Assembly (NCBI RefSeq): GCF_965227385.1
Contig: NZ_OZ245750.1
Span: 3,360,552-3,424,551, forward strand
DNA length: 64,000 nucleotides
Direction of reading: 5' to 3'
From: Sphingomonas sp.
GTDB lineage: Bacteria > Pseudomonadota > Alphaproteobacteria > Sphingomonadales > Sphingomonadaceae
The notes beneath the pieces were generated by a model. It was not told where the DNA came from and ran no database searches. It worked only from the letters and a program-made list of their open reading frames with translations. Shown piece after piece: positions 20,021-22,747 of this stretch. Within the stretch, counting starts at the first letter, position 1. Each line of letters starts with the position of its first letter. A program made the translations under genes and the position numbers.

Positions 20021-21658
20021 TCAACTCCGCGCCGCACGCAGCACACACAAGCTGAGCATGCGGTTGGCGATTTCGCGTTCGCCCAGCACCACATCGCCCG
20101 CCCCGCGCGCTTCGAGATGCTCGACTTCGGCGTCCGAATGCGCGCGCGCGACGACGGCGATGCCGGGGTTGAGTTCGCGCGCCGCCTGAACGACCGCGCC
20201 GCCCTCGAACCCCTCGGGGATCGCGATCAGCAGTTTTGCCGCGCGGTCGACCCCGGCGGCCTTCAGCGCTTCGGGATCGACGCCGTTGCCGCGCACCACG
20301 TCGAGGCCCGCGTCCTTGGCGACCTTGGCGACGTCCGCCTGATCCTCGATCAGGATGAACGGGCGCTTCTTTGCCAGCAGGTCGCGCGCGATCAGCTTGC
20401 CGACCCGGCCATAGCCGACCAGCACGATGTGGCCGGTGCGGTCGCCGGTATCCAGCGGCGGCTCGATCGGGTCGGTCTGCTCCTGCCGACGCGGGACGAA
20501 GGCGTTGAAGATGAACGGGTTGGCAAGGATCGACAGCAGCGCGCCCGCCAGCACCAGATCGCGCCCTTCCGGCGGCAGGATCTGCAGCGATACGCCGAGC
20601 CCGACCAGGATGAACGAAAATTCGCCGATCTGGGCAAGGCTGGCAGCGGCCGTCACCGCGATGCGATGCGTGCGGCCCAGCGCGCGGACGATGGCGTAGG
20701 CGACCAGCGACTTGCCGACCACGATGATCAGCACGGTCGCGATCAACGGCAGTGGCTGCTCCACGATCACCGCCGGGTTGAACAACATGCCGACCGACAC
20801 GAAGAACAGCACCGCGAACGCATCGCGCAGCGGCAGCGTCTCTTCGGTCGCCTGACGGCTGAGCGGCGTTTCGCCCAGGATCATGCCGGCGAAGAAGGCG
20901 CCGAGCGCGAAGGACACGTCGAACACAACCGCCGCGCCGAATGCGACGCCGAGTGCGATGGCAAGGACGGCGAGGCGGAACAGTTCGCGGGAACCGGTGT
21001 GGACCACCCAATGCAGCGCCATCGGGATCACGCGGCGCGCGACCAGCAGCATGACGACCAGGAAGCCGGTGACCTTGAACCCGATCTGCGCCAGCGGCAC
21101 CAGCAGCGCGCTCCACGTCATCGGGCCTTCGCTTTTCATGATCTGGGCCAGCACCGGCAGCAGCACCAGCGCGAGGACCATCACCAGATCCTCGACGATC
21201 AGCCACCCGACCGCGATCCGACCGCGTTCGGTATCGACAATGCCGAACCCCTGCAGACCGCGCAGCAGCACCACCGTACTCGCGACCGACAAGGCAAGGC
21301 CGAAGACGAACCCGGCGAGCGGGTCCCAGCCCAGCGTCCAGGACAGGCCCATGCCCATGACCACCGCGGCGGCGATCTGACCGATCGCCCCGGGCACCGC
21401 GATCTTGCGCACCGCGAGCAGGTCGCGGAGCGAGAAATGCAGGCCGACGCCGAACATCAGCAGGATGACGCCGATCTCGGCCAGTTCGGCGGCAAGGTCT
21501 CCGTCGGCGACGAAGCCGGGCGTGAACGGCCCGACCATGATCCCGGCGAGGAGATAGCCCGCGATGGGCGAAACCTTCAGTCTGTGGGCAATCGCCCCCA
21601 TGATGAAGGCGATGACGAGCCCGGCCACGATCGTGGCGATAAGCGGTGTGTGGTGCAT
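20021..21658 (-). CDS. ybaL: CPA2-family cation:proton antiporter with C-terminal TrkA-N/RCK domain
   Basis: MHHTPLIATIV...GPFTPGFVAD...LAEIGVILLMFGVGLHFS; HIVLVGYGRVG RCK motif. Confidence 0.92.
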   Translation of the reverse strand: MHHTPLIATIVAGLVIAFIMGAIAHRLKVSPIAGYLLAGIMVGPFTPGFVADGDLAAELAEIGVILLMFGVGLHFSLRDLLAVRKIAVPGAIGQIAAAVVMGMGLSWTLGWDPLAGFVFGLALSVASTVVLLRGLQGFGIVDTERGRIAVGWLIVEDLVMVLALVLLPVLAQIMKSEGPMTWSALLVPLAQIGFKVTGFLVVMLLVARRVIPMALHWVVHTGSRELFRLAVLAIALGVAFGAAVVFDVSFALGAFFAGMILGETPLSRQATEETLPLRDAFAVLFFVSVGMLFNPAVIVEQPLPLIATVLIIVVGKSLVAYAIVRALGRTHRIAVTAAASLAQIGEFSFILVGLGVSLQILPPEGRDLVLAGALLSILANPFIFNAFVPRRQEQTDPIEPPLDTGDRTGHIVLVGYGRVGKLIARDLLAKKRPFILIEDQADVAKVAKDAGLDVVRGNGVDPEALKAAGVDRAAKLLIAIPEGFEGGAVVQAARELNPGIAVVARAHSDAEVEHLEARGAGDVVLGEREIANRMLSLCVLRAARS

Positions 21659-21716
21659 AGGCTGGCAGCTGTCCCGGTTGTGGCCCGGACCGTAACGTAC
21701 GGCCCGGGCAGTGCGT

Positions 21717-21830
21717 TCAGCCGCTGGTGCCGCCGATCACGAGCGCCGCGGCCGCCGTGCTGGCCGCCACTCCACTCCAGACGATCGGCGCAAACCACCA
21801 GGGCTGCCGTTTGTCGTGCGCATTGTTCAT
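21717..21830 (-). CDS. Small hydrophobic ORF (37 aa) upstream of ybaL
   Basis: MNNAHDKRQPWWFAPIVWSGVAASTAAAALVIGGTSG*; AGGAG RBS; hand-translated. Confidence 0.5.
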   Translation of the reverse strand: MNNAHDKRQPWWFAPIVWSGVAASTAAAALVIGGTSG

Positions 21831-21872
21831 GACATCGCTCCTGAAACCGCGCCGAAGCGCGAACGGGGAATG

Positions 21873-22265
21873 TCAGACGACGGGCGGCGCGCGCGGGCTG
21901 CCGACGCGCGGCGGGTGGGACGGGCTGATGGGGACAGCGACGACGCCGGACGGTCGTGCGTCAATCGCATCGACGGCGGGGGAGATCAGCGCCGTTTCTG
22001 GGCTGGAAAGCGTGGCACTGCCGACTCCGACGACCGGATCAGGATCCGGGCGAACATCGGGTGCGACGATCCGCGGCGACGCGCGCAGCGGGCGAAGCGC
22101 ATCGACCGTGGTTGCAGGGTTGAAGGCCGAGCCGAACGCCATGGTGCGCGGCAGGCCGCTACTGAGCAGCGACGAGGCCAGTGCGACAATCAGCGCAATC
22201 CACAGCGCCGCAGCCCGGAGGAATCGAGCGTCTAGAGCGGCGAAGGCGGCGGAGCGGGCGGTCAC
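21873..22265 (-). CDS. Membrane-anchored leader-type ORF ending in RAPP (candidate arrest peptide)
   Basis: N-terminal TM (FLRAAALWIALIVALASSLL), Pro-rich spacer, C-terminus ...GSPRAPPVV*. Confidence 0.6.
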   Translation of the reverse strand: MTARSAAFAALDARFLRAAALWIALIVALASSLLSSGLPRTMAFGSAFNPATTVDALRPLRASPRIVAPDVRPDPDPVVGVGSATLSSPETALISPAVDAIDARPSGVVAVPISPSHPPRVGSPRAPPVV

Positions 22266-22301
22266 CCGATCAACTTAGTGTCGCCCGGCCCGGAATCAAA
22301 C

Positions 22302-22330
22302 GGGGCGCGGAAGCTTTCGCTCCGCGCCCC
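22302..22330 (-). terminator. Likely terminator hairpin after rplS
   Basis: ggggcgcgga...tccgcgcccc stem, GAAA loop on the minus strand, followed by GTTTGATT. Confidence 0.55.
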
Positions 22331-22354
22331 ACGCTTGTTGCTGCCGAGGGCCGA

Positions 22355-22747
22355 TTATTCGGCGGCTTCGGTGGTCTTGGCCGGACGCGGGTCGCGGCGC
22401 TCGGCGATACGTGCCGACTTGCCGGTACGACCGCGCAGATAATAGAGCTTCGCACGACGCACGACGCCGCGACGGACGACTTCGATGCTGTCGATGTTCG
22501 GCGAATAGAGCGGGAAGACGCGCTCGACGCCTTCACCGAACGAAATCTTGCGGACGGTGAAGTTGCTGCCCATGCCCTTGTTGGCGCGGGCGATGCAGAC
22601 GCCTTCATAGGCCTGAACGCGGGTGCGCTCGCCTTCGACGACCTTCACGCCAACGCGGACGGTGTCGCCGGGGCGGAATTCGGGGATCTTCTTGTCGGCG
22701 GAGAACTTCGCGACGTTCTCGGCCTCGATCTGCTGGAGCAGGTTCAT
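22355..22747 (-). CDS. rplS: 50S ribosomal protein L19
   Basis: [33 protein letters not shown]; start at MNLLQQ. Confidence 0.99.

What the first reader, a model, noticed from the sequence alone, without database searches (positions are those of the whole stretch)
21659..22265. Candidate RAPP-type ribosome-arrest leader controlling a CPA2 antiporter
Seen: a 130-aa ORF with N-terminal TM, unstructured Pro-rich spacer and C-terminal R-A-P-P two residues before the stop. It is followed by a cUUCGg hairpin (21848-21861) next to the RBS of a 37-aa hydrophobic ORF, then a long hairpin (21684-21708) and ybaL, which has a weak RBS. Established: RAPP/RGPP motifs stall ribosomes in ApdA/ApdP/ApcA-type peptides upstream of Sec/YidC genes and end DUF2946/CruR-type leaders; a membrane-targeted N-terminus relieves arrest by pulling force. 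Inference: a force- or ion-sensing leader for a K+/H+ antiporter, a target class I do not know to be described.
Basis: partly seen in the sequence, partly recalled or inferred. Interest (0 to 1): 0.65.

Follow-up and report, generated by a model that had tools for sequence, protein, structure and literature searches.

The report
RAPP leader peptide before ybaL antiporter
A small, conserved membrane-targeted leader gene that ends in the ribosome-stalling motif Arg-Ala-Pro-Pro sits, with a second tiny membrane-protein gene, in front of a K+/H+ antiporter gene in many sphingomonads; it very probably controls translation of the genes behind it, and a 2025 census already lists this leader type without testing it.

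Summary
ORF130 (22265-21873, minus strand) has an N-terminal hydrophobic helix, a disordered Pro-rich tail and R-A-P-P two codons before its stop.

In 61 loci from other Sphingomonadaceae, 58 leaders end in R[AG]PP plus 2-3 residues. A ybaL homologue follows in 57. Third codon positions vary freely, so selection acts on the peptide.

New here:
- An invariant GSAFNPATT motif lies after the helix, 68-76 residues before RAPP.
- The 37-aa ORF is a conserved small membrane protein (RPPWWF motif, strong SD), present in 49 of the 57.
- The leader's stop-codon region pairs with that ORF's ribosome-binding region, within reach of a ribosome stalled on RAPP. Covariation is modest, and the pairing energy in the window's own clade is no better than shuffles.

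The target class is not undescribed. Fujiwara et al. 2025 (EMBO J) list YbaL-family genes downstream of RAPP/RGPP uORFs (32 vs 5; 9 vs 0) in appendix source data, including a homologue of this leader. Nothing has been tested, and the sensed signal is unknown.

Verdict: a new, better-defined member of a known kind. Interest is moderate.

The parts
22302..22330 (-). rplS terminator hairpin (GGGGCGCGG...CCGCGCCCC), followed by GTTTGATT. It marks the end of the trmD-rplS unit just upstream of the leader.
   Evidence: Sequence read. Invariant in 9 close relatives.
22272..22299 (-). Possible sigma-70-like promoter: TTGATT (22299-22294), 16-nt spacer, TAAGTT (22277-22272). It would start transcription at or within 1-2 nt of the GTG start codon. 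Inferred only.
   Evidence: Conserved in the alignment. Not found by the consensus scan. No RNA data.
21873..22265 (-). Leader ORF (ORF130, 130 aa), the candidate RAPP arrest peptide.
22155..22217 (-). N-terminal hydrophobic helix (about residues 17-37), a signal sequence or signal anchor, preceded by Arg residues.
   Evidence: Invariant or near-invariant LW.AL.VAL.S.L. Kyte-Doolittle profile. AlphaFold2 helix 3-36, pLDDT 90-97.
22107..22133 (-). Invariant motif GSAFNPATT (residues 45-53), the candidate sensor or recognition element.
   Evidence: Identical in 62 of 62 leaders, encoded by 57 different nucleotide versions. GSAF[NSD]P[AS]T[TS] in the wider family.
21882..21893 (-). R-A-P-P codons (residues 125-128). 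The predicted stall has Pro127 (21887-21885) in the P site and Pro128 (21884-21882) in the A site.
   Evidence: The stall register is taken from PMC12992588.
21866..21878 (-). 5' strand of the outer stem (GUC UGA CAUUCCC): the last leader codon, the stop codon and a C/U-rich anti-SD stretch.
   Evidence: MFE fold. Consensus pairs CCUGAC/GUCAUGG. 95.7% of cells paired, against 18-57% when the partner is slid.
21847..21862 (-). Inner GC hairpin with a UUCG loop.
   Evidence: Covarying pairs (CG/GC/AU) at alignment columns 44-45/55-56.
21828..21842 (-). RBS of the small ORF (AGGAG 21842-21838, spacer, ATG 21830-21828), forming the 3' strand of the outer stem.
21717..21830 (-). Small ORF (37 aa, MNNAHDKRQPWWFAPIVWSG...): a conserved single-helix membrane protein.
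   Evidence: Found in 49 of the 57 loci where ybaL follows the leader, plus L021. Invariant R-x-P-W-W-F. 101 database homologues, all Sphingomonadaceae and all 'hypothetical'. Codon score 0.41.
21683..21709 (-). Second conserved hairpin (12 bp, 3-nt loop, no U tract) between the small ORF and ybaL. Role unresolved.
20021..21658 (-). ybaL-like CPA2 K+/H+ antiporter with a C-terminal KTN/RCK domain. Its RBS is weak.

Best explanation
ORF130 is the leader peptide of a three-cistron operon: leader, a roughly 40-aa membrane protein, then ybaL. It acts as a RAPP-type translation-arrest peptide.

Shown:
- It is a conserved, translated small protein. It has an N-terminal membrane-targeting helix, an invariant GSAFNPATT motif, a variable disordered linker of nearly constant length, and R[AG]PP 2-3 codons before the stop.
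- The module travels with ybaL.

Inferred:
- The ribosome stalls with Pro127 in the P site and Pro128 in the A site.
- By then about 90 residues have left the tunnel, so the helix and GSAFNPATT are already at or across the membrane.
- The stalled ribosome covers the mRNA to about 15 nt past the P-site codon. That is exactly the last codon, the UGA and the first bases after it.
- This stretch otherwise pairs with the SD/AUG region of the small ORF.
- While the ribosome is stalled, the small ORF can be initiated. ybaL, which has only a poor SD of its own, is then expressed through coupling, through protection from Rho, or both.
- Export or insertion of the leader's N-terminal part, or an event at the GSAFNPATT motif, sets how long the stall lasts.

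The operon would thus report the state of the membrane or its energisation. My best guess for the signal is slowed Sec/PMF-dependent export, but this is not established.
For: Conservation of the motif:
- R[AG]PP plus 2-3 residues plus stop in 58 of 61 loci, while the flanking sequence diverges to 22-30% identity.
- RAPP or RGPP in 120 of the 150 best of 402 representative clusters.

Selection on the peptide, not the RNA:
- Codon positions 1-2 are invariant and position 3 is free.
- Arg is encoded by both CGN and AGR.

Linkage to ybaL:
- ybaL lies directly downstream in 57 of 61 loci, whether or not rplS is upstream.
- Leader and ybaL co-occur in 4 of the 5 same-genus genomes that have ybaL.
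- ybaL genes without the leader have ordinary SDs, AAGGAG or GGAGAGGAG.

mRNA pairing:
- The stop-codon region pairs with the RBS region of the next cistron in both clades. In the Sphingomonas clade CCUGAC pairs with GUCAUGG. In the Sphingobium clade UUCC-UGACG pairs with CGUC-AGGAA next to AAAGGAG.
- 96% and 90% of cells are paired, against 18-74% when the partner is slid.
- Duplex z is about -3 in many Sphingobium loci.

Geometry:
- Spacing from GSAFNPATT to RAPP is 68-76 residues in all 62 leaders.

Precedents:
- RAPP and RGPP stall with the third codon in the P site and resist EF-P. Seven of seven C-terminal RAPP/RGPP proteins tested from S. lividans stalled, and so did CruR (PMC12992588).
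- The CutF stall melts a stem-loop that shields the next RBS.
Against:
- RAPP alone is not sufficient for arrest. The preceding tunnel segment matters and differs between the clades here (PMC7897499).
- In the window's own clade the stop-region/RBS duplex is no more stable than shuffled controls (z about 0; whole-region fold z 0.4-0.7).
- Four of the six outer-stem pairs never vary, so they say nothing either way.
- The pairing partner differs between clades: the AUG in one, upstream of the SD in the other.
- Any terminating ribosome would also open the stem, so plain translational coupling explains the RNA features without a stall.
- How the small ORF connects to ybaL is unclear. Hairpin 2 does not overlap the RBS, and a terminating ribosome would reach only its base.
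- Three loci have REPP or RDPP instead.
- ORF130 has a weak codon-usage score and no SD.
Confidence: 0.62

Rival explanations
1. The leader works as in CruR. A stall at RAPP keeps a ribosome at the end of the leader and blocks Rho-dependent transcription termination in the two untranslated gaps. RBS unmasking is secondary or absent. This can coexist with the main model.
For: In B. pertussis CruR the RAPP lies 3 residues before the C-terminus. Mutating it causes constitutive Rho-dependent termination in a 162-bp gap (PMC9426467). The thermodynamic support for RBS sequestration in the window's clade is weak. Two C-rich gaps with hairpins but no U tracts exist here.
Against: The gaps are short (42 and 58 nt) and the first is followed at once by a translated ORF with a strong SD, leaving little naked RNA for Rho. 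The conserved complementarity between the stop region and the next RBS in two clades is not needed in this model.
Confidence: 0.15
2. This is plain translational coupling without regulated arrest. The leader is translated, and each terminating ribosome transiently opens the small ORF's RBS. RAPP gives at most a constitutive pause that tunes the coupling, and nothing is sensed.
For: The stem's 5' strand includes the stop codon, so termination alone opens it. No ligand-binding residues such as Cys or His are conserved.
Against: It does not explain several conserved features: R[AG]PP itself, which is avoided in proteomes (PMC12992588; 16 RAPP vs 68 AAPP in this genome); the export helix; the invariant GSAFNPATT motif; and the constant 68-76-residue spacing, all kept over 400 clusters.
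Confidence: 0.12
3. ORF130 and the small protein are stable accessory subunits of YbaL, comparable to the KefF/KefG ancillary proteins. The C-terminal RAPP is a structural or interaction motif, not an arrest signal.
For: The three genes are tightly co-inherited. The invariant 9-residue motif suggests a specific protein contact. The small protein is clearly conserved as a peptide.
Against: Two thirds of the leader is unconserved and predicted to be disordered. Only the position of RAPP relative to the stop is fixed. The Sphingobium tail codons after RAPP are complementary to the region next to the small ORF's SD, which suggests an RNA constraint rather than a protein one. Every C-terminal RAPP/RGPP protein tested so far stalled. 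L021 keeps the leader and small ORF without ybaL.
Confidence: 0.06
4. ORF130 is a chance open frame in GC-rich DNA and is not translated.
For: Low codon-usage score (0.18). No SD. GTG start. Long shadow ORFs on the other strand.
Against: Selection is at the amino-acid level, with free third positions, across 62 loci and 402 clusters. The frame, the length and both motifs are conserved.
Confidence: 0.01

Closest known systems
RAPP/RGPP-containing small secretory or membrane proteins upstream of non-Sec genes (Fujiwara, Tsuji, Sakiyama, Niki, Chiba, EMBO J 2025; PMC12992588)
   Same: A small ORF under 300 aa with an N-terminal localisation signal, RAPP or RGPP within a few residues of the C-terminus, and a co-oriented downstream gene. 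Their Appendix Fig. S2 source data list the YbaL family as a downstream class (RAPP 32 vs AAPP 5; RGPP 9 vs AGPP 0). One of their table rows is a homologue of this leader.
   Different: That work gives only counts by annotation. It gives no family description, no mention in the main text (0 hits for antiporter or YbaL) and no experiment on this class. Not noted there: the GSAFNPATT motif, the constant spacing, the intervening small ORF and the mRNA pairing.
CruR / DUF2946 (B. pertussis Bp2923; Roy et al., mBio 2022; PMC9426467) and CutF (R. capsulatus; Ozturk et al., bioRxiv 10.1101/2025.02.05.636593)
   Same: An exported leader with one conserved sensor motif at a fixed distance from a C-terminal RAPP or Pro-rich motif, 2-3 residues before the stop. 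It controls the next genes post-transcriptionally.
   Different: There is no Pfam DUF2946 match, no CXXC and no conserved Cys or His, so this leader is not a copper sensor. The spacing is 68-76 residues rather than 45. The target is a K+/H+ antiporter rather than a TonB receptor or multicopper oxidase. A translated small ORF lies in between.
ApdA / ApdP (Sakiyama et al., NAR 2021, PMC7897499; Morici et al., Nat Commun 2024, PMC10951233)
   Same: Similar size (128-140 aa), an N-terminal signal, and RAPP 5-6 residues from the end. ApdP is alphaproteobacterial. The stall has RAP-tRNA in the P site and Pro-tRNA in the A site.
   Different: Those leaders precede secDF, and no sequestering hairpin was predicted for them. 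There is no sequence similarity outside RAPP.
SecM-secA, MifM-yidC2 and VemP-secDF2 monitoring substrates
   Same: The logic is the same. An export-dependent stall near the end of a leader opens a stem that hides the next RBS.
   Different: The arrest motifs differ. The regulated gene here is not part of the machinery that exports the leader, so the feedback loop, if there is one, is indirect.

Membership tests
RAPP/RGPP-type arrest peptides (class defined in PMC12992588 and PMC7897499) | Small protein (<300 aa) with RAPP or RGPP near the C-terminus | tested here: met
   130 aa, with RAPP at residues 125-128, two residues before the stop.
RAPP/RGPP-type arrest peptides (class defined in PMC12992588 and PMC7897499) | The motif and its position are conserved among homologues while the rest diverges | tested here: met
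   58 of 61 loci. RAPP or RGPP in 120 of 150 representative clusters. Selection is at the peptide level.
RAPP/RGPP-type arrest peptides (class defined in PMC12992588 and PMC7897499) | N-terminal signal sequence or transmembrane segment | tested here: met
   Hydrophobic helix at about residues 16-37. No SignalP or DeepTMHMM was run here. The paper's DeepTMHMM calls the YbaL-class uORF products SP in 39 of 41 cases.
RAPP/RGPP-type arrest peptides (class defined in PMC12992588 and PMC7897499) | Co-oriented downstream gene in the same operon | tested here: met
   The small ORF follows after 42 nt and ybaL after 214 nt. ybaL follows in 57 of 61 loci.
RAPP/RGPP-type arrest peptides (class defined in PMC12992588 and PMC7897499) | The ribosome actually stalls (peptidyl-tRNA accumulates, toeprint at the Pro-Pro codons) and the stall depends on the Arg | not testable with these tools
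   This needs in vitro translation, toeprinting or ribosome profiling.
RAPP/RGPP-type arrest peptides (class defined in PMC12992588 and PMC7897499) | The stall changes expression of the downstream gene | not testable with these tools
   Only an RNA architecture consistent with it was found. Statistical support is modest.
DUF2946 / CruR family (Pfam PF11162) | Match to the family profile, and a CXXC motif at a fixed distance from RAPP | tested here: not met
   No Pfam hit at E<=1. No conserved Cys. Not a member. A separate DUF2946-like RGPP leader does exist elsewhere in this genome.
Sec/YidC monitoring substrates (SecM, MifM, VemP, ApdA/P, ApcA) | The downstream gene encodes a component of the protein-localisation machinery | tested here: not met
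   Downstream are a 37-aa membrane protein and a CPA2 antiporter.
YbaL (RosB-like) family of CPA2 transporters, for the downstream gene | Na_H_Exchanger membrane domain plus a single KTN/RCK domain, without the Kef C-terminal extension, and scoring above the NF007950 cut-off | tested here: inconclusive
   The domain architecture is met. NF007950 is by far the best model (E 3.7e-201, full-length match), but at 669.7 bits it is just under the curated cut-off of 700.

The most novel reading that the evidence does not exclude
The leader does not monitor Sec capacity. It is a dedicated sensor in which the invariant GSAF[NSD]PATT segment, held about 70 residues from the peptidyl-transferase centre at the moment of stalling, reads a property of the energised membrane: PMF or delta-pH, K+, or damage of the kind caused by cationic peptides. 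Through a two-step relay (leader, then the RPPWWF mini-protein, then ybaL) it switches on a K+/H+ exchanger that acidifies the cytoplasm. Together with the many RAPP uORFs catalogued upstream of Kef, NhaD, Mrp, NhaP-type and TrkA genes, this would mean that nascent-chain arrest is a general, so far unstudied way for bacteria to regulate cation/proton homeostasis.
Probability: 0.25. Interest if true: 0.75.

Novelty: new member of a known kind. Interest (0 to 1): 0.5.

Why it matters
YbaL/RosB-like antiporters are widespread, but their physiological role and regulation are not established (PMC10224563). A leader that couples their synthesis to the fate of an exported nascent chain would give a first handle on when cells want this transporter.

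It would also extend arrest-peptide control from secretion and copper homeostasis to ion and pH homeostasis. That class is so far only counted in a census.

The family offers an unusually clean test system:
- one invariant 9-residue motif;
- one arrest motif;
- a fixed spacing between them;
- a built-in small-ORF relay.

Tried and rejected
- Known families: Pfam and NCBIfam give no family for the leader or the small ORF. Rfam finds no known RNA in 21500-22450.
- Promoter: the consensus promoter scan found nothing. A TTGATT-16-TAAGTT candidate seen by eye is unverified.
- Single-sequence folding: the energies are not better than shuffles.
- Accessibility test: comparing RBS accessibility with and without a stalled ribosome gave only a small average gain, 0.43 to 0.49. 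I do not lean on it.
- Duplex-energy test: it supports the pairing in Sphingobium only.
- Second relay stem: GCGGCUG/CAGCUGC around hairpin 2 folds well in the window (z -2.2) but is not conserved outside the closest relatives. It is not claimed.
- Hairpin 2 as an intrinsic terminator: rejected, because there is no U tract.
- AlphaFold2: it gave only the N-terminal helix, so no fold search was run.
- Membership of DUF2946/CruR: rejected.

Full report
**Setting**

The window is a GC-rich (65.5%) sphingomonad chromosome. On the minus strand the order is:
- trmD (23478-22753);
- rplS (22756-22355);
- a terminator hairpin;
- ORF130 (22265-21873);
- a 37-aa ORF (21830-21717);
- a YbaL-like CPA2 antiporter (21658-20021);
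- a DPP-IV-type peptidase.

The antiporter has Na_H_Exchanger and TrkA_N domains. Its best NCBIfam model is the YbaL family, at 669.7 bits against a cut-off of 700.

**Observation**

These are the 130-aa ORF ending GSPRAPPVV-stop, the N-terminal hydrophobic helix, the Pro-rich tail (21% Pro in residues 54-130), the cgcgcUUCGgcgcg hairpin, the AGGAG-led 37-aa ORF, the 12-bp hairpin and a ybaL start without a proper SD. AlphaFold2 on a 62-sequence alignment gives one confident helix (3-36, pLDDT 90-97) and a disordered remainder.

**Is the leader a real, translated gene?**

Composition alone is ambiguous. GC3 is 0.77, and my codon score is 0.18 against a cut-off of 0.25. Comparison settles the question.
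- A protein search found 27 homologues.
- A pattern scan of species-representative genomes found 61 loci in Sphingomonas, Sphingobium, Blastomonas and related MAGs.
- An exhaustive profile search found 402 clusters at 50% identity.
- Across 62 leaders, GSAFNPATT is invariant yet encoded by 57 different nucleotide strings. Codon positions 1 and 2 are fixed and position 3 is free.
- R[AG]PP has 37 nucleotide versions, and Arg is encoded by both CGN and AGR.

Selection is therefore on the peptide.

- RAPP or RGPP sits 2 or 3 residues before the stop in 58 of 61 loci. The other three have REPP or RDPP at the same place.
- Among the 150 best representative clusters, 120 have RAPP or RGPP within six residues of the end. 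Most of the rest have it slightly further in or are truncated.
- A ybaL homologue (64-98% identity) follows on the same strand in 57 of 61 loci. Two of the exceptions are contig ends.
- The upstream neighbour is rplS only in the Sphingomonas clade, so the module moves as a unit.
- Within the family the leader is patchy: 18 of 251 genomes and 14 of 112 genera.
- Among close relatives, ybaL occurs in five same-genus genomes, and four of them have the leader next to it.
- The four leaderless ybaL genes I inspected have ordinary strong SDs and no RAPP ORF upstream.

**What is new relative to the finding**

1. A core motif, GSAFNPATT, lies a few residues after the helix. It is GSAF[NSD]P[AS]T[TS] in the wider family, and it is the most conserved part of the protein.
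2. The distance from that motif to the Arg of RAPP is 68-76 residues in all 62 leaders, although the linker is otherwise unconserved. This recalls the fixed CXXC-RAPP spacing in CruR.
3. The 37-aa ORF is a conserved protein. It has a basic N-terminus, an invariant R-x-P-W-W-F and one hydrophobic helix, and it follows a strong SD. It is present in 49 of the 57 loci where ybaL follows the leader. It has 101 database homologues, all from Sphingomonadaceae and all annotated as hypothetical.
4. The eight ybaL-linked loci that lack the small ORF include the Blastomonas type, where the leader abuts ybaL directly.

**RNA**

The UUCG hairpin does not touch the RBS. It is enclosed by an outer helix whose 5' strand is the last leader codon, the UGA and the following C/U-rich bases. 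The 3' strand is the SD-spacer-AUG of the small ORF.

RNAalifold recovers this outer helix in two clades:
- In 21 Sphingomonas-clade sequences, CCUGAC pairs with GUCAUGG. One pair covaries (CG in 15 sequences, UA in 4), and the inner hairpin also covaries.
- In 20 Sphingobium sequences, UUCC-UGACG pairs with CGUC-AGGAA next to AAAGGAG. There the three tail codons after RAPP (GCC UUU UCC in L055, for example) form part of the anti-SD strand.

Paired cells are 95.7% and 90.0%, against 18-57% and 36-74% when the partner is slid.

The support is modest.
- Most outer-stem pairs never vary.
- Single-sequence z-scores are not significant.
- A duplex-energy test is clearly significant only in Sphingobium. 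The window itself scores z 0.1.

The geometry does fit. With Pro127 in the P site, a ribosome protects about 15 nt downstream. That reaches through the UGA, which is the 5' strand of the stem. This step is inference from published stall registers.

A second hairpin between the small ORF and ybaL is conserved in position in both clades, with different sequences. It has no U tract, and its role is unresolved.

**Mechanism proposed**

I read this as a RAPP-type arrest leader. The duration of the stall is set by export or insertion of the N-terminal part, or by an event at GSAFNPATT. That duration determines how long the small ORF's RBS stays open. ybaL follows by coupling, by protection from Rho, or both.

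The rivals are a CruR-like Rho mechanism, unregulated coupling, and a structural-subunit role. They are listed with tests in the Rival explanations section. The sensed signal is unknown. The only functional clue for YbaL relatives is that Yersinia RosB lowers cytoplasmic pH against cationic peptides. Slowed PMF/Sec-dependent export is my guess, not a result.

**Comparison with what is known**

The class is published. Fujiwara et al. 2025 showed three things:
- RAPP and RGPP are avoided in proteomes.
- They cluster at the C-termini of small exported proteins upstream of diverse genes.
- Seven of seven such S. lividans proteins, and CruR, stall.

Their Appendix Fig. S2 source data list YbaL-family genes (RAPP 32 vs AAPP 5; RGPP 9 vs AGPP 0). 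They also list other cation/proton transporters: Kef 12 vs 2, NhaD 12 vs 1, Mrp subunit A 37 vs 3, potassium/proton antiporter 25 vs 7 and TrkA 20 vs 1. One row is a homologue of this leader from S. turrisvirgatae, the same record as my locus L024.

The main text does not mention antiporters, and none of these leaders was tested. The family-level anatomy given here is not in that paper.

The leader is not a DUF2946/CruR member: it has no Pfam hit and no CXXC. It is not a Sec/YidC monitoring substrate by target.

**Verdict**

This is a real, conserved and probably regulatory feature, a new and better-defined member of a known kind. Interest is moderate (0.5). It would be higher if the GSAFNPATT motif proves to sense ion or energy status.

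Noticed in passing
outside the window: G000:C1:2061684-2062112 (+), locus L079:385-813: There is a second C-terminal arrest-type leader in the same genome. It is a 142-aa ORF (MTGGFPAANR...LWPPLRGPPLIS, RGPP 3 residues before the stop) lying 71 nt upstream of a TonB-dependent receptor with Plug and beta-barrel domains. The arrangement is CruR-like, although Pfam gives no DUF2946 hit at E<=0.001.
   Followed up: partly
window 22107-22133 (-): The invariant GSAFNPATT resembles the aquaporin NPA signature (SGAHxNPAVT), which forms a membrane re-entrant half-helix. I recall this from memory and have not tested it. AlphaFold2 gives the segment low confidence (about 54).
   Followed up: no
window 21830-21717 (-), residues 8-13 of the small ORF: The invariant R-P/Q-P-W-W-F contains Pro-Pro-Trp in most homologues. 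From my own knowledge this is among the strong EF-P-dependent pause motifs. A second translational pause just after initiation of the small ORF is therefore possible. In the window itself the motif is Q-P-W.
   Followed up: no
L021:1100-2950: In one MAG the leader and small ORF are intact behind rplS, but ybaL is replaced by unrelated genes before the DPP-IV gene. This is either a natural ybaL deletion or an assembly artefact.
   Followed up: partly
L078 (G019:C10:59000-61500), minus strand: This is a degenerate relative of the leader (…RHGSAFNPTTVEVAL…) that ends …HAPPRA, without RAPP. Its genome has no ybaL orthologue. It suggests that the arrest motif decays when the partner gene is lost.
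   Followed up: partly
window 22272-22330 (-): The rplS terminator overlaps a conserved TTGATT-16-TAAGTT promoter-like pair. Its predicted transcription start falls on or next to the GTG start codon, so the leader may be translated from a leaderless or near-leaderless mRNA, or by read-through from rplS. All nine aligned relatives start with GTG and none has an SD.
   Followed up: partly
window 21660-21724 (-): In the window and its closest relatives the last codons and stop of the small ORF (GCGGCUG) can pair with CAGCUGC 10-16 nt before the ybaL ATG, enclosing hairpin 2 (fold z -2.2). This mirrors the first gap, but it is not conserved in the other clades.
   Followed up: yes
L044, L047, L049, L060 (Blastomonas-type loci): These loci have the RAPP leader but no small ORF, and the leader is separated from ybaL by 167-228 nt (L049 lacks a ybaL hit). 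The ybaL SD-like AGAGAG lies in a local CUCUC/GAGAG hairpin. They are a natural variant for asking whether the small ORF is needed.
   Followed up: no
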